From contig MU004183.1 in the NCBI GenBank assembly GCA_010093605.1, positions 1,426,001-1,490,000 on the forward strand: DNA of 64,000 nt, read 5' to 3'. Positions 4,507-59,569 of the stretch are shown one piece after another. The notes below the pieces were generated by a model. The model was not told the origin of the DNA, did no database searches, and saw only the letters and a program-made list of their open reading frames with translations. Every line of letters starts with the position of its first letter. Within the stretch, counting starts at the first letter, position 1. Position numbers and translations under genes: made by a program. The stretch is from Lophium mytilinum (taxonomy: Eukaryota).

Positions 4507-5986
4507 TTACCCAAGTGGCAACCGCGAACGAATTGGCACCGCCGCCTCCTTCCATTCCTTTGGCACTGCTTCCCCAGCAGCAATCTTTACCAGTCTAAAA
4601 GAAACGTTAGTAAAATATCAGATATTGTCAGGTAACTTACTGATTCACAAGCTTGCTACCTGCTTCGTCTGATATGTGATCAATACTAAAAGTTCCAGCC
4701 TTCTTGATTACTTCGTTTGCCATTTTACTGACATAGGGTTTCGACAACTTGAGTACCCAAATCTTCAGTAGCTCACCACCACCTACTCCGGCCATTTCTC
4801 TAAGACCTTCAGCTACCACTGTTGCAATAGTCACTTTCTGAAACCGGTCAAGTGCTGTGGGATCGGCGAGAATCTCGTGCGCAACTTTGTTTTCCAATAT
4901 CATGGCATAAGGCGTTATGACCGCGGAGAAAAGGATAACGCCAATTGGCCCAGTTGCTGCTCCAATGAGGCCAGAGAGTATCGCAGTCGTAGATGAACGT
5001 ATTGCTTTTAGGGCTGCCGCCTTGGCGTGATCCTGTATATTCTGTTAGCACTCAAGCCTCTGCTTTCCCGGGTCAAAAATGATGTTTTACATAATTGTTG
5101 GCATTCAAGTGCAGGGCTGCCACAATCAAGCCGACAAGCGGAACGTCCTCCAGGAATCTGGCGAGAAAGCCGTTTCTTTCAAACAAGCCATCGCTGTTCC
5201 AGGCTGTCAGATTCTTGCTGTTAATTTCGGTTCTCAATGCTCGTACCTTGGCTCCCAAACGAGCATGCCGTCCTTGTTCAACAGCGCGAAAGACAAATTC
5301 ACTTGATTCTTCGGCTCGAACAAACGTCCGTGGGCATTCCTGAGCATGGCGTACATATACAGGTGACCAGCTTTTTTCTCAACACGAAGGCCGCTGACTT
5401 GATATGCGAGACCTGAGCCTCCCACAACAAACTCGCCATCGTCTACGCCAATGTGGTCATTGAGATCGATAGAAGATAGTCTCAATTTCCCGGATTTAGT
5501 GAGGCACAAAGCTGAAAATACTGTGCCCTTGAAATAATGGCAGGAAGCAGACAAGTGGATCGCGGAAGTCCTATCACACGTTCAATTAACTCTAATACTT
5601 TTATCCCACCTTTAAGCTAAGATAGGGGCAACGCCATACCATCTATTGAACTCAAGTTTTTCACCATAAACGGTGAGGAAAGCAGCCAAGTTCAGGCGGC
5701 GTTCAACGAAATTTCCTGGCCATGGTTGATATCTGACGACCAGGATATTCTCTTCAGTTATACGGACTGCAGAGGCTGTCCCCATACTGTACCATCCATT
5801 CCTCCATTCTGACAAGTCGAAGTCCCAGGTCTGTTCGTTCGTTGCAAACGCGCTATGGAAGCCTTCGTATTTCGCTTTTACGGTTCCATCGACAGTTGTA
5901 ATCTCGGCTATCAGGTCACAAGTCCCTACGCTGTGTTTTTCAAGGACCAGCTTTGTAGTTGCGGGAAGTGGCATTCGTAACGCCAT
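4507..5986 (-). CDS. Multi-exon protein: two CVNH (cyanovirin-N homology)-like lectin regions followed by a hydrophobic glycine-zipper-like helical domain; 3' end uncertain (could extend to ~4207)
   Basis: The exon at ~5570-5247 encodes FSALCLTKSGKLRLSSIDLNDHIGVDDGEFVVGGSG...VNLSFALLNKDGMLVW, a CVNH-type pattern. Exon 1 ends ERRLNLAAFLTVYGEKLEF (degenerate copy). Downstream exons read FLEDVPLVGLIVAALHLNANNY|DHAKAAALKAIRSSTTAILSGLIGAATGPIGVILFSAV. GT-AG introns at ~5639-5571, ~5246, ~5090 and ~4640. Confidence 0.65.
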
Positions 5987-7433
5987 GTTGAGCTACTGTT
6001 CGAGAAACGTAAAGCGAAGTGTGATTGATCTGAAGAGTTGATGCAAGGTATGAAATACAGGAGCGGATATGGTGCTCTGCCACAACTTATACCTGTACTT
6101 CTGCGGTTATCTTTCCACCGGAAGGAGCGACTGACAACCGGGTCACTCGACAGTGTGGCAATATGCTAATTGGCCTTGATCTAGAGCTTTATCGAGGTAC
6201 AGTCACCGCTGAGCTGAAAACATGGGTTTCAAACGGCAGTCGATGCTTGTGATATCTGCCGCTGTCATTCGATTCGATCTTTCGGCTAACAGTCGAGTCG
6301 CTCTACATGGCGCTCATATGCGATTCGCCTTGGCCCTCGCTTGTTTCCAGAGCGTTATCGAGATATGTTCACCAATGAGCGGAAAGCGTGGGTGCGGAAC
6401 GGCAGTCTATGCCCGCCATATCTGCCGCTATCACTTCATTGGAATCCCCGGCTAACAGTCGTGTCACTCAACAGTAGGTCAGTATTCTATTTGCCTTCGG
6501 CCTTCGCTTATGCCCAGAGCCTTATCCAGGCACAATACGCTATTTTCATTTGGCCCTCGTTTGTATCCAGAGCCTTGTCAAGGTGTGGTAGTAGCTGAGC
6601 TGAAAGCATGAGCGTCACGGAGTCCGCAAGAAGGGTAGGTCATTTTTGCAACAACTGATCGACTTTGCCCGTGAAAGATGGCAATCGGGGCGGTAACTTC
6701 TTGTCGTGTCCACATCCAGTACCAGGACAGAAGCTTGGGCACGTCGTCCTCTGATCTCTTCTAGTAGCATGATGATGTGCTAAAGCACCACAAACAGCCG
6801 CCAAGTAGGCCGACGGTGAGTGCATGGAAGCTCTCTGATTCAAGCTCTCAAAGATTTTGAGTATTATCGGAAGATTGTTAAGGGGCTGGGGCACCTCATA
6901 CGGTGGCGAGCGAGTGCCCGGACTTCTGTCAAGGCACTGTATCCTTAGCAGGCGATGTCAGGAGATGAAAACTTAAGTTACAGATGTAGAGATTTCGAAT
7001 TTGTTTCGTCAGAGAATGCCAGAGCGAAATAAATGTCTATCTGAAATGCCAATGTTCACGAGATTCAGATTATGTGAGCTAAGCGAGTTATAGTATTGAA
7101 AGTGTTGAAGCTCAAGCAGAAAGGACAGGGGCTATCTACTGAAGATAAACTAGCTAGCATGGGGGCAAAAACAGTAATGACAGTGAGTTTGTAACATTGA
7201 TGGGCGCATCAAAATGCCATGGTTTGAACTTTCCCTTCATGACCCCCCTATCTCTGCTCTTCCTTCAGGAGACAATTTCAAAAGTCGGCCAGGTAGCATT
7301 ATCACGAAACCAGACGCACCAAGATATTGTCGTGCCTCAAAGACTGATGAAATCGCTTTGGGGTCTCTCGGAGTTGTCCGTGGCATCCTAACGGAAAGGT
7401 CAGAGGAAGAGATTTGGAGACCAGAACAGCTCA

Positions 7434-9104
7434 TCAGACCTCCTGTGGTGAAGACTGGTTGACAAACTTGCTCGCGGTGTGGCTGTAGCCGCCAGGAAGA
7501 AGCAAGCTCTTCTTCTTTTTCAAGATTGACTTCTGCTGAGATGGGGTGCCGTTGGGGGGAGCCTCGTTCAGTTTCTTTTGGCCGCCCTTTCCAGCTTTGT
7601 TGCCAACCAGGGATAGGATTTTGGGATTCAGGTTCTTCATCGCCGGTATCGTGTATTTAGGAAGTCCTGGCGCGATATCCGTCACGAACGTTGCAAGCCC
7701 CTCCATGATCCCCTCTTCTTCGAGCACTTCGATGGGAAGCTCCAAAAACGCTTGTAAGGCAGCCTCCCCTGCGATGGCCCTGCGCACAAGATCTCCACCA
7801 ATGCTACCGTTAGGTAGGCTAGTTTTACCGTGGGAAGAAGCTTTGGAGTTTTTGGTTTCGCTGACCATGGTGCTTTCGCCCAGAATATCGTCAATGATGG
7901 GGATCTTGAAAGGCAAACCAAACAATTCTTCGCCGCCCGCATCGCTGTCGACCATAGCGCTTTCGCCCATAACTGTGGTCAGGATTTTGGGGATTTTGGA
8001 GAGGAAATCGAACAGCCCCTCTTCGCCTGGTTCGCCATCGGCCATAGTACTTTCGCCCGTTCTGAGAATGTCGTCAAGGATTGGGATCTTGATCCCAAAT
8101 AATTCTTCGTCGCCGGCCATCTCGCTTTCAGTGCCCCCGGCTGCTGCTTTTTTGGCTGCGTTCCTCTTGTCCAGAACTTCCACTCCCGATCTCAAAATCT
8201 TGCCGCCAAGTACGCGGAGATGCTTCCACGGTATTTTGCTGAAGATGCTCTCCTCATCTCCATCTCCGGCCATACTGCTCTCTGCCTTCTTGTTCCCCGT
8301 CAAAACACCGTTGAGTAGTCTGCCGGCAACATTGATTATGGGCCCAGCCAGAGACCAAAGGAATTCTTCTTGGCCTTCACCGGGTGCAGGTGCATCTTTG
8401 TATGCTTGTATGAAACTATCCATAAGCTTGGTGCTCAATGGACCTGCCGCCGAGGGAATAGCAAGTCGAGAGTTTTTCCAGTAATGGTCATCAAACGAGG
8501 TGCCTTGATGGCAGTTGTGGCCTTTGGGACCAGGCCGCTTCAGCTGATCCAGCACGATTCGGAGAACTGGTTCTATGATCGAGTCCATGACAATGGGAGC
8601 TGCGGCCGCAACCTTGATGCCGATTGTGTCGATGTGGTGCTTCATGGCATCCTCGACCTGCCGATTGTAGGGTGCGTCCAGGTCAAGTCTTTCCACCACT
8701 CGAAATGCGGCTTCCGCAAGAATCGCTCGCTCAAGCGTGCCGGCAGGTGCCACTACTGACAATTGCTTCCCCGCTTGCGCCTCTCGAAGCAGCGCAGATG
8801 CAGCGTTCAAAGTGAAGCCTGCCAGAGCTGCAGCTGGATATCCAATTGGGCCTATGGAAGCTGGAGCAGAAGGGAAATCCAACTTTGCTGGATCGGGAGG
8901 AGAAGCCACGAAGATTGCACCCGACATAACTCGATTGTAAACTGCATCATGGTTGTGTTTTGATTCTTCGGTGTGTCGGGGCAGACTTTTAGGCACATTC
9001 TCTGGTGGAGGTGCAGGTGCAGGTTGCCCATTGCTGGAATCTCCATATTCGACCGTCTTTGTGTGCTTCTCATCGGTGGTGGTTTCCCTTTTGACGCCTG
9101 ACAT
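7434..9104 (-). CDS. Hypothetical 556-aa intracellular protein with tandem Glu-delimited amphipathic peptide repeats (candidate peptide polyprotein)
   Basis: Uninterrupted ATG-to-stop ORF with no signal peptide. Five units of (G/T/A)ES-xM-acidic spacer-EE-amphipathic segment, plus a duplicated helical motif (LERAILAEAAFRVV / LVRRAIAGEAALQAF). Confidence 0.8.
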   Translation of the reverse strand: MSGVKRETTTDEKHTKTVEYGDSSNGQPAPAPPPENVPKSLPRHTEESKHNHDAVYNRVMSGAIFVASPPDPAKLDFPSAPASIGPIGYPAAALAGFTLNAASALLREAQAGKQLSVVAPAGTLERAILAEAAFRVVERLDLDAPYNRQVEDAMKHHIDTIGIKVAAAAPIVMDSIIEPVLRIVLDQLKRPGPKGHNCHQGTSFDDHYWKNSRLAIPSAAGPLSTKLMDSFIQAYKDAPAPGEGQEEFLWSLAGPIINVAGRLLNGVLTGNKKAESSMAGDGDEESIFSKIPWKHLRVLGGKILRSGVEVLDKRNAAKKAAAGGTESEMAGDEELFGIKIPILDDILRTGESTMADGEPGEEGLFDFLSKIPKILTTVMGESAMVDSDAGGEELFGLPFKIPIIDDILGESTMVSETKNSKASSHGKTSLPNGSIGGDLVRRAIAGEAALQAFLELPIEVLEEEGIMEGLATFVTDIAPGLPKYTIPAMKNLNPKILSLVGNKAGKGGQKKLNEAPPNGTPSQQKSILKKKKSLLLPGGYSHTASKFVNQSSPQEV

Positions 9105-11581
9105 ATTGACGTAGTGGAGCTGGAAAGTGTAGTGGTCGAGGTCTTATGAATTGAAGTGCTTGAGGATGGTTACAAGCAAGAAGAATCGTCGACAGGTTGC
9201 TGATATCTTGCTCGAAGCAAGTCTCAAGCTTCGAACAGCCTTTTATACCTTTGCCATCAGAACGCGAGGGCTACAAACGAATGTCGAGCCCTGTACGCGC
9301 TGCGAACACATTCATCTGACCATGGTTGTGGCAACACATTGACCGGCTTGTCGAACCACTGCAAGACATTTCCTAAACTAGCAGCAGACATATTCCCGAG
9401 GACAAATTAACCGATGTGCTGCGCTCTAGATTGTCTCTTGCTGATCACGAAACTAGTTTCCAGCTGAGATGTGAACGACAATCCCAGCTATCTCGTCTTT
9501 CCATGGAAGCAGATTAAGCGATTGAGAGCTGTTGATACGCGTATGCATGACAGTGGAGGTGATTTCAAGGATGTATGGTGCGGAATTCGCTAATGCTGTG
9601 GTCTTTGGGCTTCGATGTAGTTGGAGGATAGCGTATTTCATAGATCCGAGTATACCGCGCGTCATACATGATACAGGCAAGCTGAAGTTGAGGGCCCTGG
9701 TCCACCTGATAGTACTCGTAGCGGAGCCGTGATAGCGTTGCCATTGAACAAGAAGACTGATCGCCATATACTAGACCCAATCCACCAGTTCGGGGGATGC
9801 CCTAGAAAGTTTTGACCGTTTGGCACAAGCGGGCAAGCGCTCAAGGACCCAATTTGGCGTGGAAGCAAGACTGGGGGCCGCGAAACGATAAAATTATCAC
9901 GCAACCTGACTTGAAGTAGATATTGGCTGCTTGATGCATAATCCAATTAAAGAACTGGCCTCACGTTGGGGGAGGATTCTTCTTGGTCATGTCCCCATCG
10001 GGGAAGCTGATCTGCAGCAGGGTAGGTGCCCAAACCAATCAGCACTTGAAGCGAAGGCTGGATGCCATTCTGGTCCGACTGCACCTTGTACCGTCTTACT
10101 ACCTCAGCTGAGAAGCAACAGATGGCTGCATCTCTATACGGCAGTGCAGGGGTCTTGTTTTCGGCGAGAAGTAGAAGCTTTGCACCACGTGCCTACGTGC
10201 ATGGTGGGTAAATTTCGAGCCGAGATCCAGGTAAACAGGCCCTCTCCGGCTGTTCCGTAGCGCAGAACCGAAAAAACCCAAGTAGTTGCAAGTTGGGATT
10301 CGGGTAGTTCCCCCTCTTTGGTGGTTCTGCAGCGCGGGCAGTGGCGAAGCGAATAGGTACGTGACATCTATTGCTGCCCAAGAAGAGATGGGCTTTGTGG
10401 GACCGGAGTGGGATGCAGCTTCTTACCGGATCGTCCTCATTGCAGTGGGTGGGTAGGTGGGACCAAGCCCATCATGACCATCCCATTACGTTCCGTTGCA
10501 GGACGAACCGGGCAAGGCGAGTGTGACGGAAGGAGAATGCGGTCATTGAGCGGCAAAGAAAGCCAGCATCGGACTCCAATCATGACGGCAATCGTCCCAG
10601 AGGGCGGGCGTTCGGCTTTAGAGCCGCATTAGAGGGGCGTTAGAGCCGCATGATAGCTCGCTTAGATTTGTCGGGTGCAAAACAGCGTTCGTCTCTTGGC
10701 AAACGTCCCTGCCACACACACGTTAATTTGTATAAGGAACGTCGGGATCCTACCTAGAGAACTTAATTTTTTTACCGCATCTTAACGCCGCCTAACTTAA
10801 TAATTAGTAAGGCTATTAATACTATTATAGAGGCTATATACTAACTTTTTCTAGTATTATAGTGCCTCTAAAAGCCCCTAATACCCGCATTCCCGCGCAG
10901 TTAACGCGTAGTAAAGCCCGCCACATCTCCTTTAATTAGAAGGCCTCTGCCTCTACTATTAGTACTCTAGATAAGGCTGTTTCTAATTCTCTAGGTATAT
11001 TAACGCCTGCTTCTAGAAAGGCGCTAAAGGCTTTAAAGGCTGCGGCAGCGCCTATAAAGGCGCCTACGCCTATAAAGGCTTCTATAAAAGTGCAGGCGCG
11101 CATAGTAGAGTAGGCCGCCTAATATAGAGAGAAGGCGCGCTTAATAGAAGAAAAAGACCTATTATAAGATAAAGTAGAGGCTTAAGTTACTAGATATCTA
11201 TTAGCTACTACCGCGTGTAAAGCTACAGGTAAGAAGCCTAAAGCTGCAAGAGGCTCTATAAGAGGCTCTATAAGAGGCGGCAGCGCCCTTTTAGATACTA
11301 TAGTAGCTTCTACTAGCTGTAGAAGAGGCTCTACTACTAGTTATAGAAGGGGCTCTACTACTACTAAGTTAGTAGCTAAGCGCCTAGCAGCTCTTAAGAA
11401 AAGGCGCCCTAATATTACTATTAATCCGCCCTAGGGCTAGAGTATTAGTAGCACTTTATATAACTAGTACCCTGGTTTACTTAAGGCTAGATATATATAT
11501 ATTAAGACTCTAAATAAGCGTAAGTATTAAAATATAGAGAATAGAATAGACTCTAATCTATTAAGAAACAGCAATAGTAAG

Positions 11582-13338
11582 ATGCCGCCTGGCTAGACGC
11601 CGCGAGGCAGATACTGTAAGCGTCGCGCTAATAAGGTTGCAGTAGATATAGAGGAAGTAGATAAGAAAGAGAAAGAGAAGAATAATCTACTAATATTACC
11701 TAAGCCGGGCGAGGAGATAGATAAGGAGCTTAAGTACTTTATAGAATAGTTTATAGCGGAGTATCTTAATAGAACTAGTAGGCGCCTCTCTATAAACTAG
11801 ATAAATAAAATTAAGGCGAAGGCGTATATAAAGAAGAGGAGGTAGTTATTTACTAAGATAGACCTAACTATATCTAATATTAAGGTAATATTTATATCTA
11901 TAAAGTAGCTTATTAATAACTTTATTATACTTATATTATCTAAGTTATTTATAAATAGTAAGACTATTAGCTAAACTATATAGCTAAATAGCACGCGCGT
12001 TTAGCTTAATAGTAGAGTTATTAAGAAGAAGCTTAAGAAGATAGTAGAGAGAGCTATTTAAGAGGGTAACTATAATACTATTTATAGAGTTATTAAGCGC
12101 ATAGCTAGCGTTAGAATATCTACTAGAAGAGGAGGAACGCGCTATTACAATCTAGAGGACTTCTTAATAATAGAGTTTACCTAGGTGCACGCGCTAATAG
12201 ATATAATATAGAGGGACTATCTGCGCTTAATAATTATAGTTATTTTTAAGTATAAGGTCTTATGCAACGCCTAGGCGCCGCCGGCTAAAAGAAAGAGATC
12301 TAAGCAGCCTAATAGCTTGTCGCCTGCGCCTGCATTAGGTAGAAGGTACTATACTAGTAAGCTATTAAAGCAGTAGTATATCTAACTAGGTTACTATACT
12401 AATAGGGGAGATCTTAAGCTTAAGGTTATAAAGGACTAGATATATATAAGTAGTAATTACTTAAATAAGAATAATAGTTACTTTATTAATAAGGGTAAGT
12501 AGTACTATATTTTTCTTTTAAAGTACTATAAGATATAGGTAAATACTATACTTAGTAATAACGCTATAATTTATGCTCCTCCTGCAAAGCTACTCTAAGA
12601 GCTAATAGAAAACGGGCTAATTAATAAGTAATACTAGAGGCCCGCAAGGACTATATAGGCGCAGTTAGTATAGTAGGTAGTATAGAATACCTAGAATACT
12701 ATAGCCGGCTTTATAGATGTATAGATAAAGATAATATAGATAAAGATAGCTATATTAATATCTAAAATAGACTTTAACTAGCCTTTATAGTAGCTGTAGT
12801 AGGCCCCTTTCCCCTTCTATTACCCTTAGCCGCCGCTATACTAGGGGGCTTCTGCGCCGCTAAACCCCTATGCTATAGCTAGATATACTTCTTTTCTATC
12901 TACTTCTACTCTATAGCCTACTTCTACCCTATAGCCCTCCGCGGCGCCCCTTCCTCGCGCGCTAGTTATTTAACCTAGAAGCTTAAGCTTTATAGCGCCG
13001 GGCGTGGATAACACTAAACTAATAGAGGCCTTCTTCCAGTGGAAAGTAGATAATATAACTAACTAAATAGCGCGAGCAATATAGGTTAAGGCCGCCGGCG
13101 TCTACTTGCAGCAGGCCTGGACCTTAGAGTTCCTCTAGGAGATAGAGGATAGGTTCTTTAAGGCGTATAAGATAGCTATAGATAGAGAAATACTAGATAG
13201 AATAGCTATAAAGTTTATAGATAAGATCTATAGGTTTAAAGACCCCTATAGAACTATATAAGCAGTAAAAAACCTAGTAGATCTAGTAGATATATATATA
13301 AATGCGCATAGAGAAGGCTTTATTCTAGAGAGAGAATA
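11582..13338 (+). pseudogene. RIP-mutated non-transposase (cargo/accessory) ORF inside the transposon
   Basis: Protein-like frames interrupted by TAA/TAG stops, e.g. ~13021 IEAFFQWKVDNITN*IARAI*VKAAGVYLQQAWTLEFL*EIED and ~12420 KD*IYISSNYLNKNNSYFINKGK*YY...NAIIYAPPAKL. Boundaries approximate. Confidence 0.55.
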
Positions 13339-13504
13339 GTAGTATATAGAGTATATATAGAGTATATAATTATATAGCCTTTCTATTTAATATATAGACT
13401 ATATAGCCTTCCTATTTTAGTATTTCTATTTTAAATTAGGGCTATTATAATGTGGGGCTTAAGTATTAGTGCGGGCGAAATGTAAAAATATATCTTAATA
13501 TTAT

Positions 13505-13718
13505 AAGGCTTAAGTATTAGTAGTAAGAATCTAATTGTAATATTTTGCGGCTTAAGTATTAGTAGTAAGAATCTTATTTTAAGGCTTAAGTATTAGCGCA
13601 GAGGAAATTTACCCTGCGCTAATACTTAAGCCTTAAAATATTAAAATTAGATCCTTACTACTAATACTTAAGCCGCAAAATATTAAAATTAGATCCTTAC
13701 TACTAATACTTAAGCCTT
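13505..13718. repeat. Internal palindrome of the transposon built from ggcttaagtattag-containing subunits
   Basis: Three ggcttaagtattag copies at 13507-13596 mirrored by three ctaatacttaagcc copies at 13619-13716 around cgcagaggaaatttaccctgcg. Confidence 0.85.
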
Positions 13719-15139
13719 AGGTTAAATTATATATAGAGTATATATAAAATAGAAAGGCTATATAGAGATAGAATCTATTACTTTATTATATCTTAGTAAA
13801 TATAAGTCTAATTTATATAAATAGATAGCTAAATTACGCGTCTAGACGCGTATATTTATATCCGCGTGCTAGATATATAGAAATATTAATTAGTAGTAAT
13901 AAACTTTTAAAGTTACGGTTATAGTTCCTAAGTATATAGTTAAATAGGCTTAATTCTCTACTTCTTTTTTCTAGTATAACTAGCCCTAGGCTTTAGAGCC
14001 TGTTTAAACGCCACTATATCTTCTGCAGCATTAACCTAAGTATAGCGCTTACTTCTAACCCTATATATACTATATTTACTACCTAGGTTATTATTAGTAT
14101 AGAAATTAATATTATACTAATAATAGCCCCTAGCAGGTATATTCTAGGCGCACTCTAGGTATACACCGCAGGCTAGGCCTGCCTAATTCTAGCTATATTA
14201 GCCGTTAATAAGCTCTATATAGGCGAGCTTAGCGCGGCGGGAGCGCTTTTAGAGGGCCGTGGCAATAGTAGAGGAGCTAAGGGCAGCGGCGAGGTTATTA
14301 GTATACTAAAAGAGAGTTAGCAGGCCTAGAATAATAGTAATAGTAAGGGAAGAGGGCAGGCGGTAAGCGCGGCGCTTTCTATATAAATAGGTTAGCTAGA
14401 TTCTTAAGCTACTATACTAGAAATTATATATAGCGGAGGGGGATTAGTTCTCTCTTCTTTATTCTTATTCTTATTCTTATCTTTATCTTTATCCTTCTCC
14501 TAGTTAGGTATATTGTAGATATCTCTACTAATAGTAAGAGTAGAAAGGGGGTGTACGGGCCTACTATGCACCGTATAAAGCCTCTAAGGGCTAGAATCCT
14601 CTAGGCTCTTACTAGAGGAAGCTTCTAGCTTCTTATCTTTAGCTTAAACGCCTATTATCTCCTCCTTAGTAAGGAGCGGCCTAGCCGCTACTACCTATAT
14701 TACTAGAGGATCCGGGCGAACCCTAAGGGGCCTAAAGGGGTGCGCGGTAAGAGGCGGAGAGAGGGAGGGCTCCGCAAGGACGTTGTTAATTAGGCTATTA
14801 ATAGAGCCCTAATTGCTAGTATTATTAGCTATAGTATTATTAGCTATAGTATTATAGAGGCAGTAATTAATAGTATATAGAGTCTAAAGAAAGAAGAGAG
14901 TTAAGAAAGAGGTAAGAATATATAGAAAAATAAATAATAGCTATTAAGCTTTACTATATAACTTTACCCTGCACTAATATATAAGCTATAGATTATCCGC
15001 CAGCGCTAATACTTAAGCCTTAGCCTAGATAGTATATAAAAAATAGCAATACTAAAATAGTAATACTAAAATAGTAATACTAAAATAGTAATACTATATA
15101 TAGAGTATATATTAAATAGAAAGGCTATATAATTATATA

Positions 15140-16277
15140 CTCCTTAGCCTACTTCTTAGCCTATTTCTTAGCCTACTCCTTAGCCTACTCCTTCTTAACC
15201 TAGATATTAGTATCTTCTCTCTTATATATATCTAGCTTAGTATATACTTACGCTATATACTCTCTTACTATATATATTCTACTAGCCGCATACTAGAACT
15301 AGTAGGCAGTAAACCTATTATAGCAACTCTACTTAATTACTGCCCGTAAGAAAGTACTAAAGTTTAGATAGTAACAGCGCTTATAGTAGTAGTTATAGTA
15401 GATCTAGGCCTTAAGCGTTATAAAGGTTAACTTAATAGAATTAAAGTTAGAAGAGTATAGTAGAAGGTAGTATACTAGGTAGCCCTAGGCCTCTATAGCC
15501 TCTATAACGCAATTATTAGTATATATACCTAGATTATCTATTATAATTACCTTAGATCTACTATTAAATACCTACTGCAGCGCTAGCAGCAGGTAGTTAA
15601 TAACCTAGCTATAGAACTTATTGCTATTAAAGTATCCTTCTTAAACGCCTATGCACGGTAGCTAGCTCTTCTAGCTTATTGCCGCGTATATACTCTACGT
15701 CTTACCTCTTATTATATTACCCTAGTAGCGCGCAGGATTACTAATAGGTGCGTACATATAGTAGCGCCAACTAGTCTTCTTATTAAAGATAGATTTATCT
15801 AGAAAGATAAGATTATTAGCCTTATACTTAGAGAGCTCTACTAGGTAACTAAGCTGTAGCTCTTTACTTACTCTTAGTAACTCGCGCTTTACCGCCTTTC
15901 TACTCTAACTGCGTTGTTTTATTATCTAGGAGATAGTAGACTAAGAAATGTTAGCACCACGCTCCTTATTAAGCTAGACCGCTATCTTATCTTAATTGCG
16001 CTATTCTTCCGCCTTTAACTACTTAAAGAGCGCGTTCTTATCCGCCTATAAGAGCCTATACAGTTATTCTACGCGTAGTTAACGCGGCCTTATTAGAGTC
16101 CTGTATACTATTATATTACTCTTTATATTCTAGATAGTCTAGACGTTAATTCTAACCTTATACGCAATAGTATTAGAATACTAGCCTAGTTAAAGAAGTT
16201 ATACGGTCTGCATACATTAACGGGCGGTAACGCGGTGTTAATTATTGCCAGCGGACCTAGCGCTAGCAGTAACGCAT
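15140..16277 (-). pseudogene. RIP-mutated Tc1/IS630-family (DDE_3) transposase
   Basis: The minus strand at ~15550-15400 translates VIIIDNLGIY...GYLVYYLLLYSSNFNSIKLTFITLKA*I. Reversing C->T/G->A changes gives VIVMDN..H...YLPPYSPDFNPIE...LKAWI, with 34 residues between D and E. An ATG lies just inside the right TIR; boundaries approximate. Confidence 0.8.
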
Positions 16278-16646
16278 AATTCTTAATCTACTATACTAGA
16301 AAAAGTTAGTATATAGCCTTTAGAATAATATAAATAGCCTTACTAATTATTAAGTTAGGCGGCGTTAAGATGCGGTAAAAAAATCAAGTTCTCTAGGTAT
16401 AATCCCAACGTTCCTTATATAAATTAACGTGTGTGTTGCAGGGACGTTTGCCAAGAGACGAACGCTGTTTTGCACCCGACAAATAGCAAATGACCGTTTT
16501 GGGTTGGCCCTTCTCCAAGGCGGTCAGGCGAGTCACGTGGATTGACAATCTTTAACGACGACAGACTGCGGCGAAATTGAACAATTTGATGCGTACAGTC
16601 CTGGGCGTTGCGCCCATCCATCCTCTTGCCCTAGCAGCTCAGTCCG

Positions 16647-17834
16647 TCATGCTATGCTCAGGTTCAGCGATTTTCGAATCGCCGCGTTCGCTTCTGTCAG
16701 CAAGACGCTGCTCGACCCCGAGCTGTTACAGCAAACATTGCCCGAAGCCCATATCTCACACGGCTGTGCACTCATATCTCCTAGTACAGCTTCCTCCATG
16801 TCTGAGCCTAGGCTCGAAGGCGATCTTGCTTTCCGTTCGAGAAGCGTTTGACTTGTGCTCAAGAACCGACCGATAGTCTCCCACTTCGCCGAGAAATCTT
16901 GGTAGAATCTGATTTCCATCTCAACTACTTTCTGGTCCCTACAGCAAGCTAAATAGACCTTTGTTCGATACGCCGATGTAGTGATATGGAGTGCAGCGAC
17001 ATGCATGCCGAATCCGGCAATCGTGGAAATCATGTTCGGCAAATTTACGTCGTAGTGGCGATCGTAAGTCGAAAGATGAAATCGGTCATATCCTGCCCCG
17101 TCGGAATATGTGCTTCTCTCGCAAAAGTGGGTAGGCTCGACGGGGAGAGTGTGCTCAGGAATGCTTTGGATTTCGGGAATGTTTTGGATTTCACCTGGTT
17201 GTTCCTCAATGGCTGGCACAGGTTCGTTTCCATCCCCAGTGTGATACAAAGGCTGCGTTGCTGGTTGCACTTCTAGAGCCGGCTCTTGCGTTTTGCTTTC
17301 AAATGCTTTGATGGAAGTGCTGTACAAAGCCTCGTCAAAGTCGATCGTGAAATGAACGGCTTTCAATATGTTAGCGGCGCCGACTATAGAGTAACCCAGC
17401 GCATCTTACTGTAGTCCATGCCAATAGTTGACGGCCCTTCTTGTCGGATTCGAAAGAAATTGTCTGGAGCAGATAATACTCGACCAAAGGCTCTATTGCT
17501 TCCCCACGGGAAGCCACCTTCGAAGGACAACTGGAGCACCATCTCGTTCACCGCCTCAGGCTCCGCTCCAACATCCAACACATAGTTTACACAACCTTGT
17601 GCACCAGCTACCCCTAGTCGGATGTTAGACATGGCTTCGATAACTTGAAGGGGACTTTCCTCTCGCTTTCATTTCATGACTCTCTCCACATTTGATGGTG
17701 CTGGCGGGGGTAGAATTGGGAACCCAAGAACCTTGACTCAGGTAGTGGCTCTGGTAATTGAGATTAAGTGAAAGTTTGTTTGTGATCACGATACGGCACA
17801 ATTGCTCGTATGGCGATTTAGAGGATGCCATCAT
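16647..17834 (-). CDS. Aegerolysin/Cry34(ET79)-like beta-sandwich N-terminal domain plus an unknown C-terminal domain; 3 exons; intron 1 has a non-canonical GA donor (possible pseudogene)
   Basis: Spliced N-terminus CRIVITNKLSLNLNYQSHYLSQGSWVPNSTPASTIKCGESHEMKAR|GVAGAQGCVNYVLD...LQLSFEGGFPWGSN...GMDY|TVHFTIDF follows the aegerolysin-like pattern (I.N...L......L..G.W....P..I..G ... G..G.V.Y ... P..GSN). Intron 2 (17409-17360) is canonical. Intron 1 (17659-17614) begins GAAAGT. Confidence 0.6.
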
Positions 17835-18589
17835 GCTTTCACGATTAGATCTACGAGTCATCTTTTACGCTCATATATGAGAATTAGGTGGACGAGAGAG
17901 ATACATGAGTACTACTACTTGAGAAAATCGATGCGTATCCGTCATTATGGGTGTGTCTTTCTTGTTCCCAAAAGAGTTGACTAGTCAAAGATCTACGGTC
18001 ATAAGTGTAGTTCTTAGACTAGCCAAGATGCCTGTGGCTAGCTGAGGAGGAGGTGTTGCAAAGATTGATTCGCAAATAGCCTTGCCTCCGTACAATCCTA
18101 TGTAACATCATAGAAGGCAGCTGAAAGATGCGCCTGCATGATGTATCTCGGTACACCGGCTGTTCCTTGTCGGCATTGCCTGCGCTTTCGACGCTTTCGG
18201 AAACGATTTCTTCGATTCGTCTTGGCTTGCATTTACGTGATCAAATACGTTCATGTGTAGGTAGAACAGGCAAAGTCTCATTCATATTCAAGATCTGATT
18301 GCTGGAATTCGTGCTATACCAGGACGCAGTCATACCCCAGATGTTCATTTTAGCACCAAATTTCTCTCCATATGTCCGCTATTGTTCTATCAAAACACTA
18401 TGTTTCTCGTCCTTTCGAAGCGCTCAGAGCTTGGTCCAGATCAAAGTCATCTCATAAACACGAGCTCGTGTTAGACTGAGGGGTGATCGTCGCTGGTCTG
18501 GTGACGAGAGTCCCTGGTTGGTGTGGGGAAGTTACCAGCTGAATATCTGCATCATCAGTGGGGCATACCAAAGCACAAAAACCACGAAT

Positions 18590-19220
18590 CCCGTCTTCTA
18601 ACCGAGCTTAGCCATGTCAAATGCTCCGTATCAACTGAGACGATGTGGAGTACAACGGGAGGCGAAGGCTTTGCAGACGATGGATCAGCAGTTTTTCTAG
18701 CTGCAGGAGTCGAGCTGCAAGCTGGGGGGGGCCAGCTGCAGTCTTCTTAGCGAACTCACTCGTATCAAAGGCTAATTGGCAACGGAGACGATGCGGAGTG
18801 TGATAAGGGGAGGAGGGTTCGCCGACGATGATGGATCAGCAGATTCTCTAGCTGCAGGAGTCGAGCTACAAGCTGGGGGGGGGCCAGCTGCAGTCTTCTT
18901 AGCGAACTCACTCGTATCAAAGCCCAATTGGCAACAGAGACGATGCGGAGTGCGACAGGGAGACGAAGGCTTTGCAGACGATGGATCAGCAGACCCTCTA
19001 GCTGCAGGAGTCGAGATGCAAGCTGGAGCAGACCAGCTGCAGTCCTTTTAGCGAGCCCAGCTGTATCAAAGGTCGATTGGCAAACGTAAACGATGCGGAT
19101 TGCATGAAGGAGGCGAAGGCTTTACAACCGATGGATCAGCAGATGCTCTAGCTGCAGCAGTCGAGACACCAGCCGGAGGGGACCGAGTATAGTCGTCTTA
19201 GCGAGCTCAATAGTGTCGAA
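18590..19220. repeat. Four ~150-bp imperfect tandem repeats in the divergent intergenic region
   Basis: The unit gagacgatg(t/c)ggagt...gaaggctttgcagacgatggatcagcag...ctagctgcaggagtcgag...gctgcagtc..ttagcga recurs at ~18637, 18786, 18937 and 19088. Confidence 0.85.
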
Positions 19221-19501
19221 TCCCAGAAGCTGAGGTCTCGTGGATGTTCCGTGATACGAACTGTGACCCATCTACTCTAAGCCGTAAATATTTGCAAGGG
19301 GAATATGCCAGCCGATAGCCGTGCAAGCGACTTTCATTAGATCAGAGCACACACGATGAATCTTAGCATGTGCAGCCATGTATGACCGATCAGGAGCAGA
19401 TTCAGGTATAAATGAAAGACGTGAAACCCACATCAGAATCGAATATACCGCACTTTTTACCACAGCTTCGTTCCTCATAAGACCAACCAACCAACGACGA
19501 A

Positions 19502-22500
19502 ATGCCTTTCATCAACTCCCGTGTCGATCAATCCCATGACATCTTATCGAGTGCTTCGAATCTTCAAAACAAGGATTTTGAACTTCGTAGTCTCGTGGCA
19601 GGTGTATGGGATCTAGCGTCAGCTGAAGCAGAGGCTCCGGCAGAAGCCGACTGGGTGCAGTCCCTCAATCCGGGCTCAGAGTCGGTGGTTGGTGAGGATG
19701 AGCGCACGCCAGTGAAGCCGGAAGATTACGCCTCTGGAGGGAAGTATCGCTGTAAGTGTACACAAATGATGCCGTGTTTTGCCTGATTTGCGTACTTACA
19801 AGAATCTAGCAATCGTCAAAATCTTTGCGCAATACGAATATTCGAGTGGGTGGGCTATGGGAACTGGTTGGCTAATCCGCCCTGACCTAATGGTGACGGC
19901 TGGCCACATCGTCTTCAATCATTCACCCAAGTTTGGTCGAGCATCTGTTATCAAAGCGTACATCGGGTACACTGGTAAGAAGTCTATCGGAACTCCTGGC
20001 GTTCAGTTCCGCACTGGTGTCAGATGCGTCACCACAGCAGCCTGGCTCGGTCGAAAAGGGGCCAAACCATTCGATGTAGGATTTGTCAAACTTAACAAAC
20101 CCTTCGAAGGCATTGAGCCAATCGAGTTTATGGAAACTCCTACCAGTGGTAATGATGAGCTAGGAGTCGTCGGCTATCCTGGTGATCTCGAACATGATGG
20201 CGAAAGAGGCGCCCTTATGCATGAGATGTTCATCCCAGTGAGTGAGCCGGTTGTCTGAAGATTTAACTTATTGCTAACAACGCTTAGCAAGAGTTCAACC
20301 TCGCCGAGCAGGACTTGAGAATGTTGGAGTATACCATCGATACCTTCGGGGGTACGTGAATACCCTAAGCTTTGCTATTTGGCTTGCTGACCTTCTGTGC
20401 TTTAGGTAACTCCGGATCTCCGGTTTTTCTGAAAAGAGGCTCTTCCACGAAAGCTGTCGGAGTTCACGTTTATGGCGGCACAATCAATTCTGCTTCTGTC
20501 ATCGGCAAATGGGGCAATCCATTCGAAGATTATGTGTCCGTCATGAGTGCTCAGATCCCAGCTGATGGCGGTCTCCATTACTTGCCGGCTTCTCGCTCAA
20601 CGGCCGTTAGTCTCTCCGGCGATCCCAAAGACAGCAAGTCATTATACACTCCGCTTGAACATGGAGGGAAATACTTGTCAGACCAAAAGTCGCAGAGCTT
20701 TGGATCGTTCATCGATGATGTGTGGAGCAACTACACGACAACGGAGAGCAGAAATGAATGGAACAACAACTGGAGCAGTTACGACTACAACAAGAGTCAA
20801 GAATCTCAGGATACAAACAGTCGAACCGATGCTGACAAAGTTGTTCGCTTCCGAGACGGCGGCGAGACTTCCCGGGACCACGCTTCCCAGGACCACGCAT
20901 CCCAGGACCATGCATCCCAAGAGCACGCATCCCAGGACCACACATCAAGCAAGGGAAAAGTCACTAAGACGGTAGAAACACACACCACGACAACGACTAC
21001 TAAGATAGAGATAAATGACGGTGATGGGAGTGTCGAAGACTCAAATGGGGGGCTTGCTCGCGCAGATAGAGGGGGCACCGAACAGAAGTCTGGCGGTTCT
21101 AGTAGCAGGTCAGTGATTTCCTCGAAAGGCTCGACACAAGCGCTGACAGATACTAGCCAAAGCCAACTTGAGGACTCTGGTTCAAGTAGAACTGTGCGAC
21201 AGTCCGGGGAAGATACCGCACGGTCGGGGACGGACTCTGTCAACAAGGGCTTGTCGAGAACGGGTGAACAAGCTACCCATGATGGTTCAAGTAGCGCCTT
21301 GAATCAGACACGTCAGGACTCATCTCAAACCACGAACCGGGGCTCAAACCAGTTTGGCGGAAGTACCCAGAATGAAAACCAATGGTTTGGAGGACACAGC
21401 CAAACCTCGAATGGGTCCGACGGTTCAGGCAAGGCGCACAATACAGACACGACATCATCCCGAAGCCAACAAAATACAAACACGATATCGTCTCGAAGCG
21501 AACAAACCGCAAATCAATCAAGTGCGACAACTACTAGCAAAGGATTCTCGAGTAGCTCCACCAATCAGAACAGTCAGCAGAACAGTTCTTCTGGTAGGAA
21601 GGCCTTGTCCGATCATTGTTTCTCTTCCCAAGCAGGTTCAGCGATTTGCGCTGGCTGTGGAAAGAGTCAAAAAGATTGCTCTTCATCTGGCGCAATATAT
21701 GCTGACTTCAGACAACCTCAATCTACTACAAGTATAGGCATATCGGGGAGCAAGAGTGAGCTGACATCGGCGAGAGGTGGATATTGGTCTTCACAAGCGG
21801 ACACTAGAGGCTACTATCAGTCTCATGATACGACATTAGGTACGCTGGATGGAACGGATCCCAGAGGCTACTATGAGTCTCGGAATACGACGTTAGGTAC
21901 GCGAGATGGTGCGCGTGATCTCTGCATTGCGTGTGGACAGCCCGCCTGCCCATTTTCGCAAGGCATATTCCGGGACTTTCAACGACACTTCCCTGTTTCA
22001 GAGAACAAGGAAAACTTCCCTTACTTTTGGCCTGGATGTCTGCCACCAAATGAATTACACTCCAGGTAAGGCTTTGTCTTTCCAACATCCCTCTAACGCG
22101 ATTCAAGCCTTTTAAGCAAGCTTCCTAGATACAGTAACGCACATGACTGACTTGTACGCTCACAGTGGAACTGAAAGCTTTACATTGTTCGGCCCCAAGG
22201 GTCAACAATCGATCTATACCGAGCAGATGGCGGTATGGCAACTAGGCACCGCCCCTTGGCACCCTCCTTCCACAAAGGATGTGAAACTAGGACAACTTGG
22301 GTGTTTCAACGATGATGGGACTTGGCAAGTCATTGCCCAGATAACAGATCCAAAGGAAATCGCAAAGGCGAACCAAAGAGCCTACAACCGCCAGAAGCTT
22401 CTCAAACCCTTTTCCACTGGCGTTCCTGCCATCCGCTCAGCCAGCAACACCGAATGGAGCGCAAGAATCACTGCAAATGTCACGAGTACTGACCTTTCAA

Positions 22501-23203
22501 CTAACGCGAAGGTAGAGTAAGTATTACTTCCAGCTAAAGGAGTTGATCATGGTGACTAACGAGAATCAGCGCTGTGCTACCTGTGAACGCCGAGGTCAAA
22601 TTCGCCCTATCTAAGAAAAATTCCAAGGGAGCAATTCTGGTAGTAGAGAACCCCATTACCAAAACATGGTTCGAGTCAGGAGAGACGTCGTTCAAACGAT
22701 GGATCGACGACAACGTAGACGCACTCAAATCGAACTGGGCGAAGGAGCTGGACCGAGGCTTGTGGCTCATCAAATCTCTGATCACAACGAAAACGGCGTA
22801 TATCAGTGTTCTCAACAGTCAGAAGAGTGAGCTCACTATTGGGGGTCACGTGACAGTTCCGGGATATGGAGGTGGAGGCGCCAATTTCGGAAAGACAAGC
22901 TCAATGAAGGTTGATGGGTGGGAAACCCATACATCCGGCCCTGTAAGTTTTCAGTCAGTGAAAACATAAGTAATAGCTTACTAAGTCGTCACAGGATGAA
23001 CAAAGAATCGTGTTCATGTCCGCTTATCGTTATGACAAAGGGAAGCTATGGGGGGTAAGCAATTGAATCAGTGGCAAATATAACGGAGATACTAACATCT
23101 ATAGATAAACCAAATTGAAAGCGCATTGACAGAAGATGAAGAATGCATTGCCATGATAGATAGAGATGGAAATATTATCCGTAATCCCTGGGTCGTCAAT
23201 TGA
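19502..23203 (+). CDS. Fusion protein: V8/glutamyl-endopeptidase-like (chymotrypsin-fold) serine protease - low-complexity linker - fungal gasdermin (RCD-1/HET-Q1-like) domain; 8 exons, 1094 aa
   Basis: Exons 19502-19751, 19810-20237, 20288-20351, 20406-22065, 22166-22516, 22570-22942, 22995-23054 and 23105-23203; all introns GT-AG and phase-compatible, total 3285 nt. Protease motifs: VTAGH, FDVGFV, DTFGGNSGSPV, GVHVYG. Gasdermin-like motifs: IYTEQM...GTAPWHP...KLGQLGCFNDDGTW, GAILVVENPI, FKRW..DN...L...GLWLIKSLITT, DGW..H...DEQRIVFMSAY. Confidence 0.8.
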
Positions 23204-23811
23204 GGTGGAGATTGATGTTGTGATGAGTGGTAGAGGGGAAGAGTTGAAGCGTACAGCGGGGGCTGTTTGGTATCCATGGTGTTGTTGGTTGAGCAGGGAC
23301 GTACGTGTGAAGGTTTTGGCAGAACATGTAGGTGCGTCTGGAGGTTTTGTGCGACATTGCGACTCGCCAAGTGAGGGCGAACCAAGGTTGTGTGATGTCT
23401 TCAACCCGGGATGGAGTAGACATTAGCAGACGAAAAAAGACAAGGAGTGGAGTTGATCTGCCAGGCATCCCACTAATGAGGCTGTACCAACATGCTACCA
23501 TCCCTATTAGGTAACGCGTCGTTGGAAGTTAAGATTTCCCCCTCCTCCAACCACGACGCGTCCTGCAACCCCACGTGCAAAGATGTTCAACCAGCGTTCG
23601 TTGCGTCTCCCATCCATGGCGCAGTACTCTCGCCGAGCGCAGTCGTTCATCTCCGTCTGGCATGCTGTTCCTGACGTCAGTCCCTGTATATTCACCGCAA
23701 GGTAGGTCCCACGTGCTCCGTGGTATGTGCGCGACGAGTTATAAAAGAGCGCAGAGGCAACAGATAAAAGCCTGCACGTAACTTTGCACCTTCAATTGAA
23801 CATCCTTCAAG

Positions 23812-57874: not shown

Positions 57875-57882
57875 TTGCTTAT

Positions 57883-58003
57883 GATGGTGTGTTTATAATG
57901 ATGTCGTTATGATGGTGTGGATATGATGGTGTGGATATGATGATGTGGATATGATGATGTGGATATGATGGTGTGGATATGATGGTGTGGTTATGATAGT
58001 GTG
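57883..58003. repeat. 14-bp tandem repeat (gatggtgtggatat)n, about 7-8 copies, just upstream of the second RING gene
   Basis: Directly visible repeated gatg(g/a)tgtgg(a/t)tat. Confidence 0.85.
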
Positions 58004-59420: not shown

Positions 59421-59569
59421 CTGCTTATGACACGCCACAGAGTACTGTAGGATTCCGAAAAGGCAACAGCTGTCTTGACTTGGACTGAGAGGTGCTCGAC
59501 TAATCACATTCGACCTTACCCACTATTGGAGACGCTACAGGCGGTGATGCCTAAGTGCAAGAGTCAACG

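What the first reader, a model, noticed from the sequence alone, without database searches (positions are those of the whole stretch)
4507..23203. Cluster of four unrelated candidate membrane-attack modules around one protease: putative fungal immunity/antagonism island
Seen: between an adhesin and a phytase-like gene, the four consecutive non-TE genes encode a CVNH lectin with a glycine-zipper-like domain, an amphipathic peptide polyprotein, an aegerolysin-like protein and a protease-gasdermin. None has a signal peptide. The first three are co-oriented on the minus strand and the fourth diverges from them. Inference: four different predicted membrane-permeabilising modules side by side suggest a co-inherited system (regulated cell death or anti-competitor/anti-predator defence) with the Glu-protease as common activator. 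Removing the transposon collapses the block to ~13 kb.
Basis: inference. Interest (0 to 1): 0.85.

Follow-up and report, generated by a model that had tools for sequence, protein, structure and literature searches.

The report
Split fungal protease fused to gasdermin
In a wood-dwelling fungus, a glutamate-cutting protease gene has been broken in two: its usual helical tail is now a separate neighbouring gene and the enzyme is predicted to be joined to a gasdermin-like pore protein instead, which points to a self-arming cell-death protein of a kind not yet described in fungi.

Summary
The four genes, their strands and the 5.8-kb RIP-mutated transposon are real (12.9 kb without it), but they are not four unrelated modules. 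Gene 2 is the detached C-terminal half of gene 4's protease. A fused relative maps with residues 1-325 to gene 4 and 328-706 to gene 2, and 74 of 80 long relatives of the protease carry this tail. The protease has the hallmarks of a glutamyl endopeptidase. In place of its tail it carries a linker and a gasdermin-like domain, which is weakly but consistently supported and 97% identical in Mytilinidion resinicola. One inversion would explain the layout. Published fungal gasdermin partners are S8 or CHAT proteases on separate genes, so this would be a third class and a single chain. The fusion is predicted, not shown by RNA. Gene 3 has an aegerolysin/Cry34-like domain whose first exon the annotation misses. 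Gene 1 is a CVNH protein; its pore-former call is unsupported. Genes 2+4 and 3+4 appear linked in other genomes, but none of 27 distinct family loci elsewhere had these neighbours. A spliced antisense RNA covers the gasdermin part. Verdict: new variant of fungal gasdermin-protease systems; the four-effector island is unproven.

The parts
4507..5986 (-). Gene 1, 420 aa, 5 exons (5986-5640, 5570-5247, 5193-5091, 5041-4641, 4594-4507): CVNH lectin domain in exon 2, a possible degenerate second CVNH in exon 1 (by eye only), helical C-terminal part with one hydrophobic Gly/Ala-rich stretch. Membership in the unit unproven.
   Evidence: Open model; PF08881 E 5.6e-10; no match for exon 1 or exon 4; hydropathy 1.97 at 282-300
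7434..9104 (-). Gene 2, 556 aa, single exon: the detached helical tail of the protease family. Folded all-helical core (about 81-190, 241-270, 431-500) with an inserted, expanded run of acid-flanked hydrophobic cores (277-426).
   Evidence: Tail HMM E 1.4e-38; maps to P0003 residues 328-706; AlphaFold2 pLDDT 83-95 in most core blocks, under 50 in most of the insert; covered by an RNA-like contig 7076-9871
10666..16484 (.). RIP-mutated multi-copy DNA transposon with 197-nt terminal inverted repeats (10666-10862, 16288-16484); not part of the unit
16647..17831 (-). Gene 3: aegerolysin/Cry34-like beta-sandwich domain over exons 1-2 (17831-17645, 17607-17410), then a linker and an unknown domain (17359-16647). 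The database model (P0162, 311 aa) lacks exon 1. The best-fitting first intron is a short 37-nt GT-AG with a weak donor; if it is not spliced, the gene is broken at this junction.
   Evidence: Exon 1 is the only significant hit (E 2.4e-4) among 1238 window ORFs to an aegerolysin-family profile; 21 bits with X at the junction against at most 6.9 in 1000 shuffles; best of 43 candidate gaps 27 bits; ortholog P0163 63%
18633..19233 (.). Four degenerate tandem copies of a roughly 150-nt unit in the divergent promoter region between genes 3 and 4
19502..20620 (+). Gene 4, N-terminal part: propeptide, E60/SVVG activation-like site, chymotrypsin-fold protease (H116, D172, S250; T245 and H268 at the S1 positions of glutamyl endopeptidases)
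   Evidence: Best PDB match of the ortholog 1P3C glutamyl endopeptidase E 2.7e-8; residues located; P0003 residues 1-325 map here
20621..22065 (+). Gene 4, about 480-aa Ser/Thr/Gln/Asn-rich linker with Cys pairs near its end; open and 79% identical to M. resinicola over residues 296-803
   Evidence: relatives P0020, P0065, P0102
22166..23203 (+). Gene 4, gasdermin-like domain (about residues 804-1066), bracketed by TES/F (E804) and IES/AL (E1067), plus a 28-residue tail. Joined to the protease by a predicted 100-nt intron (22066-22165).
   Evidence: 97% identity to M. resinicola; top PDB hits bacterial gasdermins 9V2S and 7N52, E 0.013-0.11; ESM Atlas 0.95-0.97 to fungal 247-286-aa clusters and 0.91 to a cluster with Bact_GSDM on 11% of members
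21961..23333 (-). Spliced antisense transcript over the gasdermin-coding part: two minus-strand GT-AG introns (22560-22501, 23096-23046); longest Met-started ORF 76 aa
   Evidence: Joints with CT..AC ends in contigs of one RNA-like run, depth 3.2 and 20.9; intron signals and ORF scan

Best explanation
The core is a rearranged member of a widespread, apparently undescribed fungal family: a cytosolic glutamyl-endopeptidase-like protease followed by a helical tail with Glu-rich cut sites. In Mytilinidiaceae and at least one other lineage the gene was split just after the protease. The tail became gene 2 and expanded its acid-flanked cores; the protease was joined to a neighbouring gasdermin-like gene. 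One inversion of the segment between the protease/tail junction and the gasdermin gene gives exactly this layout (inferred). Proposed working order: (1) the zymogen activates by cutting after E60, freeing an SVVG N-terminus as in bacillar glutamyl endopeptidase (inferred from alignment). (2) It cuts its own chain at the Glu-Ser sites flanking the gasdermin domain (E804, E1067), removing the short C-terminal tail and releasing a pore-former that kills the cell (inferred by analogy with HET-Q1). (3) It also cuts gene 2's product in trans after EE/ES, releasing hydrophobic peptides, or gene 2 acts as the protease's keeper or decoy substrate (inferred; which one is open). Gene 3 travels with gene 4 and may add membrane targeting. 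Gene 1 is a neighbour of unproven relevance. SHOWN: homology, the split, conservation, linkage proxies, antisense splicing. INFERRED: the fusion splice, Glu specificity, cleavage, pore formation and the defence role.
For: Complementary mapping of fused relatives onto genes 4 and 2: P0003 1-325 and 328-706; P0013 66-373 and 408-726. 74 of 80 protease relatives with at least 150 aa after the protease carry the tail, 39 of 45 outside the training set; gene 4 and its ortholog carry none. Gene 4's protease nests among tail-bearing proteases (28-row clade 98/92; sister P0003/P0013 only 82/76). Thr/Ser at the 190 position in 70 of 81 and a His at the 213 position in 81 of 81 proteins with the motif; an E-[STAKN]-[VIL] site before the protease in 59 of 76. 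In 65 tails, ES occurs 292 times against 139 in shuffles and E[EQ]G[FLI][FWL] 44 times against 0.4. The gasdermin part is the best-conserved segment between the two named species (97%, protease 90%, linker 79%). The M. resinicola annotation is also one 1132-aa fusion. Relatives P0020 and P0043 end at the same intron donors. 80% of fungal gasdermin genes sit by protease genes and are activated by C-terminal cleavage (PMC8851545, passages).
Against: No RNA joint across intron 22066-22165; the only contig there is unspliced and probably antisense, and the exon ends in a stop if the intron is kept. The gasdermin call rests on E 0.013-0.11 PDB hits and a language-model lead. ES is not enriched in gene 4 overall (7 seen, 7.4 expected), so the two flanking sites are only suggestive, and there is an internal one (E953). 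His213 is shared with Gln-specific enzymes and does not prove Glu specificity (PMC5508998, passages). Three of five cores of the M. resinicola gene 2 are not amphipathic and carry no net charge. Linkage rests on accession adjacency and equal contig lengths, not on DNA read here. The divergence of the tail after E1067 may partly reflect different last-exon annotation.
Confidence: 0.55

Rival explanations
1. Rearrangement by-product. The split and the neighbourhood come from an inversion in a fast-evolving region; the pieces are kept, but the protease does not control the gasdermin-like domain or gene 2, and the genes are not one system.
For: The family elsewhere has varied, mostly unrelated neighbours and none of these genes. 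The same window holds other lineage-variable genes (HET, kinase-HET, RING paralogs), and the block's GC3 (0.50-0.55) equals theirs (0.51-0.55). A transposon sits in the middle.
Against: 97% conservation of the gasdermin part, an open linker of about 500 aa and expanded ES-flanked repeats in gene 2 of both species; the gene 3-gene 4 link in a third, more distant genome.
Confidence: 0.2
2. Ordinary two-gene pair. The protease-plus-linker (ending at 22069) and the gasdermin (own Met near 22140 or 22227) are separate products, or the intron is only sometimes spliced. It is then a het-Q1/het-Q2-like cluster with a new protease class, but not a fusion.
For: An in-frame stop follows the donor at 22066 and an in-frame Met lies in the predicted intron. 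Stand-alone 247-286-aa look-alikes are the norm. No sense splice was seen.
Against: Only about 70 nt separate that stop from the Met, too little for a promoter (inference). The intron has a good donor, branch site and acceptor, and the M. resinicola model is fused at the same point.
Confidence: 0.13
3. One reading: four independent membrane-permeabilising effectors co-inherited as a defence island, all activated by the protease.
For: All four genes are adjacent and cytosolic-looking; three have membrane-related folds or motifs; pairwise linkage of genes 2-4 and 3-4 elsewhere.
Against: Gene 2 is the protease's own tail. Gene 1 has no ES site and no pore-former match; gene 3's ES is not in the aligned part of its ortholog. 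Aegerolysins generally bind membranes and need a partner to make pores (PMC9505663, passages). No such neighbours at 27 distinct family loci.
Confidence: 0.12

Closest known systems
Fungal gasdermin / protease clusters (Podospora HET-Q1/HET-Q2; Q1-6/Q2L-6; Clave et al. 2022, PMC8851545)
   Same: Gasdermin-like domain of about 260 aa with a short C-terminal tail, tied to a protease at the same locus
   Different: Protease is chymotrypsin-fold, Glu-type, not S8 or CHAT; predicted single chain with the protease N-terminal; no TPR/WD/ANK/NACHT sensor. The locus is absent from the 8 Lophium and Mytilinidion rows of their Dataset S1, and 'Trypsin' does not occur in the three datasets.
Bacterial gasdermin systems (Runella bGSDM, PDB 7N52/9V2S)
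   Same: Best sequence matches of the domain; bacterial gasdermin loci include trypsin-like proteases (a figure-legend abbreviation in PMC13475620; otherwise recalled)
   Different: Eukaryotic, intron-containing gene; enzyme and pore-former predicted in one chain; low similarity over about 90 residues only
Bacillar and staphylococcal glutamyl endopeptidases (BIGEP 1P3C, V8)
   Same: Catalytic triad, Thr190 and His213 equivalents, VVG-type mature N-terminus after a propeptide
   Different: No signal peptide; carries a long helical tail (or here a gasdermin-like domain); fungal
Multi-core peptide precursors: KEPs and Candida Ece1/candidalysin (PMC7329392, PMC5784256; search listing only)
   Same: Repeated hydrophobic cores between spacer sites, released by a protease
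   Different: No signal peptide; acidic (EE/ES) rather than dibasic sites; cores inserted in a folded helical domain; the putative processing enzyme is the other half of the same ancestral gene
Aegerolysins / Cry34Ab1-type two-component toxins (PMC9505663)
   Same: Gene 3 exons 1-2 match a profile whose members hit PF06355 (40 of 57) and Cry34Ab1 4JOX (E 6.9e-30)
   Different: No direct Pfam hit; extra C-terminal domain of about 240 aa; no MACPF or Toxin_10 partner found in the block; the constant neighbour is a gasdermin-like gene

Membership tests
Glutamyl endopeptidase (chymotrypsin-like, V8/BIGEP type) | His-Asp-Ser triad in a trypsin-like fold | tested here: met
   H116, D172, S250; Trypsin_2 and 1P3C matches
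Glutamyl endopeptidase (chymotrypsin-like, V8/BIGEP type) | Thr/Ser190 and His213 in the S1 pocket | tested here: met
   T245 and H268 align with 1P3C; the review notes His213 is shared with Gln-specific enzymes
Glutamyl endopeptidase (chymotrypsin-like, V8/BIGEP type) | Propeptide removed to give a VVG/VIG-type N-terminus | tested here: inconclusive
   ES-VVGEDER aligns with VIGDDGR of 1P3C; site present in 59 of 76 relatives; processing itself not observable
Glutamyl endopeptidase (chymotrypsin-like, V8/BIGEP type) | Signal peptide, secreted (bacterial members) | tested here: not met
   No hydrophobic N-terminal stretch (hydropathy only)
Glutamyl endopeptidase (chymotrypsin-like, V8/BIGEP type) | Cleavage after Glu | not testable with these tools
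   Only indirect: ES and EEG-hydrophobic motifs enriched in the family tail
Fungal gasdermin (RCD-1/HET-Q1-like) | Sequence homology to the gasdermin pore domain | tested here: inconclusive
   Bacterial gasdermins are the top hits at E 0.013-0.11 in three searches; ESM Atlas lead; no direct hit to RCD-1 or HET-Q1
Fungal gasdermin (RCD-1/HET-Q1-like) | Gasdermin fold | tested here: inconclusive
   Single-sequence AlphaFold2 failed, pLDDT 32
Fungal gasdermin (RCD-1/HET-Q1-like) | Short removable C-terminal inhibitory peptide | tested here: inconclusive
   28 residues from E1067 here; conservation drops from 97% to 43% there; last exons are predictions
[quoted passage not shown] | Protease gene within 10 kb of the gasdermin | tested here: met
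   Same locus, predicted same gene
[quoted passage not shown] | Protease is S8 subtilisin or CHAT caspase-like | tested here: not met
   Trypsin-fold only
[quoted passage not shown] | Cleavage-dependent pore formation and cell death; allelic or idiomorphic variation | not testable with these tools
   Needs experiments and several isolates
Aegerolysin (PF06355) | Match to the family profile | tested here: inconclusive
   No direct Pfam hit on exons or on P0162; significant match to a 59-sequence profile whose members are PF06355/Cry34-like
Aegerolysin (PF06355) | Stand-alone protein of about 15 kDa | tested here: not met
   Followed by about 240 further residues in frame, also in the ortholog fragment P0163
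Aegerolysin (PF06355) | Adjacent MACPF or Toxin_10 partner gene (two-component members) | tested here: not met
   None among the ORFs scanned in the block
CVNH lectin | PF08881 domain | tested here: met
   E 5.6e-10, above cut-off
CVNH lectin | Sugar binding | not testable with these tools
   -
KEP / Ece1-type peptide precursors | Signal peptide and dibasic Kex2 sites around repeated cores | tested here: not met
   No N-terminal hydrophobic stretch; cores bounded by EE and ES. Defining features recalled and from abstracts.
Known helical pore-forming toxins (for gene 2's core) | Shared fold | tested here: inconclusive
   Whole 556-aa model searched, core not folded alone; see Tried and rejected

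The most novel reading that the evidence does not exclude
A three-part fungal killing device of a new design: a single-chain, self-cleaving glutamyl protease-gasdermin, held in check or assisted by its own ancestral tail made in trans (gene 2) and by an antisense RNA, and aimed at a particular membrane by the aegerolysin-like protein of gene 3. That would be a gasdermin standing in for the MACPF partner that aegerolysins normally recruit. Behind it lies a large unstudied fungal family of cytosolic Glu-proteases that carry and release their own membrane-active helices.
Probability: 0.12. Interest if true: 0.9.

Novelty: new variant of a known kind. Interest (0 to 1): 0.62.

Why it matters
Fungal gasdermins are reported to be controlled by S8 or CHAT proteases on neighbouring genes, or by allelic pairing (PMC8851545, PMC12881547; passages). 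A Glu-type chymotrypsin-fold activator would be a third class. A single chain holding enzyme and pore-former poses a direct question: how is it kept off? The locus supplies testable candidates: the propeptide, the detached tail and an antisense RNA. The clean split also exposes a widespread fungal family (Glu-type protease plus helical tail with EE/ES sites; one member is database-named 'ATP synthase F1') that my searches did not find described. The tail has a confident helical model and no significant structural match. Predicted cut sites make the biochemistry cheap to test.

Tried and rejected
No whole genome is held for this window, so linkage could not be read from DNA. No relatives of gene 1 were searched in the large protein collections (all three searches went to genes 2, 3 and 4), so its linkage is untested. 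The gene 3 search found no M. resinicola ortholog of 138-441 aa; the protein numbered between the two linked accessions was not seen. Single-sequence AlphaFold2 of the gasdermin part failed and was not used for fold searches. The gene 2 model had no Foldseek match at E 0.001 in PDB or BFVD, and the best VIA-align Z was 7.0 over generic helical hairpins at residues 241-331; the core was not folded alone, so this does not show a new fold. No RNA holder was listed. The RNA-like run X3 did not cover gene 1, gene 3 or the protease part; this is no evidence on expression. The ESM Atlas gave only sub-threshold hits for gene 3 exon 2. PADLOC and NCBIfam gave nothing informative. Metagenome scan with P0012: none of 212 pattern matches confirmed. 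Prokaryotic genomes: none of 132 pattern matches confirmed for the protease family; 0 of 401 and 0 of 5 genomes matched a gasdermin exon; no plasmid match. A bacterial gasdermin profile could not be obtained. Pfam on 202 flank ORFs from 19 of the 27 distinct loci showed no CVNH, aegerolysin or gasdermin, but Pfam misses genes 3 and 4 of this window too, so I repeated it with own profiles on 9568 ORFs of all 42 loci (best E 1.6); the gasdermin profile has only four rows and is weak. HET or NLR-like genes lay near 4 of the 19 loci and a TPR fragment near a fifth; there is no baseline, so no claim. A compositional island was rejected. No Rfam family in 4000-24000. Exon 1 versus exon 2 of gene 1 gave no alignment. 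I first read gene 3's first junction as lacking a canonical donor; enumeration of 43 gaps favoured a short canonical intron. No complex prediction was run: alignments are too shallow and the whole gene 3 domain is not held as one protein. Literature searches that found no description of this family, fusion or antisense control. The bacterial gasdermin paper PMC9134750 is not held and the SI Appendix PDF of PMC8851545 could not be read; either may mention trypsin-like partners or fusions.
Full report
Setting. The window is fungal; a protein it encodes is named Lophium mytilinum in the collection (Dothideomycetes, Mytilinidiaceae). No whole genome was available. Between a CFEM adhesin and a phytase-like gene lie four genes and a transposon. 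The transposon (10666-16484) has 197-nt inverted ends, a RIP signature and many copies in the DNA run. Without it the block is 12,878 nt. Gene 1 and gene 4 give open spliced models of 420 and 1094 aa.

Gene 2 is not independent. Its search returned 8 proteins: itself, an 81% ortholog in Mytilinidion resinicola, four full-length proteins in which the same domain follows a trypsin-like protease, and two unnamed fragments. A search of 1.84 billion representatives with the gene 4 ortholog P0012 gave 1507 hits, of which 150 were listed. 146 of the 150 contain the protease; 80 have at least 150 further residues; 74 of those 80 carry a gene 2-like tail (39 of 45 outside the 38 used to build the profile). 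Gene 2 scores E 1.4e-38 on that profile; gene 4 and P0012 have no tail. The Xylographa protein P0003 maps with residues 1-325 onto gene 4 (plus strand) and 328-706 onto gene 2 (minus strand); P0013 maps likewise. In a 67-row tree gene 4 sits inside tail-bearing proteases (clade 98/92; its sister position only 82/76). None of the 42 metagenome loci showed a tail on the opposite strand. So the split is derived. One inversion between the protease/tail junction and a downstream gasdermin-like gene would give the present order (inference; no outgroup DNA was read).

The protease. Its best solved relative is the bacillar glutamyl endopeptidase 1P3C (E 2.7e-8), and the family profile ranks glutamyl endopeptidases first. 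H116, D172 and S250 are intact, with T245 and H268 at the Thr190 and His213 positions; across proteins with the motif, 70 of 81 have Thr/Ser and 81 of 81 a His there, and 59 of 76 have an E-x-hydrophobic site just before the domain. A review (PMC5508998, passages) describes these S1 residues and activation by propeptide removal, but warns that His213 is shared with Gln-specific enzymes. Indirect support for Glu specificity comes from the tails: ES 292 against 139 in shuffles, [ATG]ES 131 against 37, E[EQ]G[FLI][FWL] 44 against 0.4, with DS and KS not enriched (65 tails).

What gene 2 is. AlphaFold2 with 77 sequences gives a confident all-helical core (most blocks at 81-190 and 441-500 score 83-95; pTM 0.63) and a low-confidence insert at 277-426. 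The alignment's first 55 or so columns are spurious. Five hydrophobic cores lie between EE and ES sites; three exceed the shuffled 95th percentile for helical moment and two are clearly cationic (+3, +5). In M. resinicola only one of five exceeds it, and three are near-identical neutral repeats. So 'amphipathic peptide polyprotein' is half right: it is a folded domain with an expanded run of releasable cores. Membrane activity is untested.

The gasdermin-like part. Residues 804-1066 are 97% identical between the two species, against 90% for the protease and 79% for the linker. In three PDB searches the top hits for this part are bacterial gasdermins at E 0.013-0.11. The ESM Atlas places it with fungal 247-286-aa proteins (0.95-0.97) and with a cluster in which 11% carry Bact_GSDM (0.91). 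Folding failed. I rate the call likely but not proven. ES sites bracket the domain (E804, E1067) in both species, but ES is not enriched in gene 4 (7 against 7.4). The fusion depends on a 100-nt intron with good signals, annotated the same way in M. resinicola. No read confirms it.

Antisense RNA. One RNA-like run identical to the window covers 21961-23333 with two joints ending CT..AC. On the minus strand these are GT-AG introns with GTTAGT donors, distinct in place and length from the predicted sense introns, and the transcript has no Met-started ORF over 76 aa. It may regulate gene 4 or be divergent read-out from the phytase-like promoter about 240 nt further on. It rests on one run at low depth. 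The same run covers gene 2 (7076-9871).

Gene 3. Pfam and PDB give nothing for its exons or for the annotated protein P0162. I built a profile from 59 bacterial proteins found with a recalled motif (120 stretches, 69 usable ORFs, largest cluster). Of 57 of them aligned, 40 hit Pfam Aegerolysin, and the profile hits Cry34Ab1 at E 6.9e-30. Among 1238 window ORFs the only significant hit (E 2.4e-4) is an unannotated exon just upstream of P0162. With X at the junction the two exons score 21 bits against at most 6.9 in 1000 shuffles; exon 2 alone scores only 1.3. The best of 43 candidate gaps is a 37-nt GT-AG intron, shorter than the other twelve at this locus (46-100 nt) and with a weak donor. Aegerolysins usually need a partner to form pores (PMC9505663, passages); no MACPF gene was found in the block.

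Gene 1. CVNH is confirmed. The C-terminal part has one hydrophobic Gly/Ala-rich stretch and no family or structure match. It has no ES site. Nothing here ties it to the others.

Linkage. M. resinicola: gene 2 and gene 4 orthologs are KAF2805960.1 and KAF2805958.1, each on a 1,221,752-nt contig. A third genome: relatives of gene 3 (63%), the gene 4 linker (45-52%) and the gasdermin part (78%) each come from one JGI contig of 9,833 nt, most simply the same contig. Against: 42 family loci from other fungi (27 distinct, 9 with at least 3 kb on both sides) show no gene 1-, gene 3- or gasdermin-like neighbour. The block is thus lineage-limited, not a general island.

Comparison. Clave et al. (PMC8851545; passages and supplement rows) found 80% of 1,884 fungal gasdermins near S8 (63%) or CHAT (19%) protease genes; their 8 rows for these two species do not include this locus, and 'Trypsin' is absent from their three datasets. 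A 2025 review (PMC12881547, passages) repeats the two classes. RCD-1 tolerates an N-terminal GFP (PMC7414189, passages), so the N-terminal fusion need not itself be the brake. Searches found no description of this family or fusion; the library lacks most subscription papers. It works like a het-Q-type system but fails two features (protease class, separate genes), so I file it as a new variant, not a member.

Verdict. Real and more specific than first read: a split Glu-type protease whose tail is now a neighbour and whose new cargo is gasdermin-like. Split origin about 0.9; whole mechanism 0.55; four-effector island 0.12. Interest 0.62.

Noticed in passing
window 18633-19233 and 6164-6610: Degenerate tandem repeats of about 150 nt (four copies) upstream of gene 4 and about 166 nt (two to three copies) upstream of gene 1; copies are out of frame and have no Rfam or Pfam match.
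   Followed up: partly
window 22501-22560 and 23046-23096: The antisense introns overlap the predicted sense introns and reuse mirrored signals: the antisense donor GTTAGT is the reverse complement of the sense branch site ACTAAC.
   Followed up: partly
window 7076-10660: RNA-like contigs run from gene 2 up to the transposon's left end, about 1.5 kb beyond the start codon; strand unknown. The transposon end may drive or bound this transcript.
   Followed up: no
window 10666-16484: The transposon's flanks give only a 2-3 nt target duplication (AG or TAG) and it holds inner inverted repeats at 13.4-15.1 kb, perhaps a nested element; superfamily not determined.
   Followed up: no
window 34888-36513, 46030-47920, 49993-54248, 54521-59503: Other immunity-type or fast-evolving genes in the window: a HET gene, a kinase, a kinase followed by a HET domain, and three tandem RING-finger paralogs.
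   Followed up: partly
P0099, P0110: Relatives of the protease that lack the usual tail and carry a different long C-terminal region ending in an H-type lectin domain; others carry VWA or Lipase_3. The family swaps cargo more than once.
   Followed up: no
L033:7633-8421 and L033:12858-16915: A second, tail-less protease paralog sits head-to-head with a family gene, with a NACHT-WD40 NLR-like gene on the other side.
   Followed up: no
L039:2292-4103: A reverse-transcriptase element is inserted between protease and tail of a family gene, an independent way to separate the two halves.
   Followed up: no
P0004: A family member is named 'ATP synthase F1' in NCBI although it is a trypsin-like protease with this tail; likely a misannotation.
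   Followed up: partly
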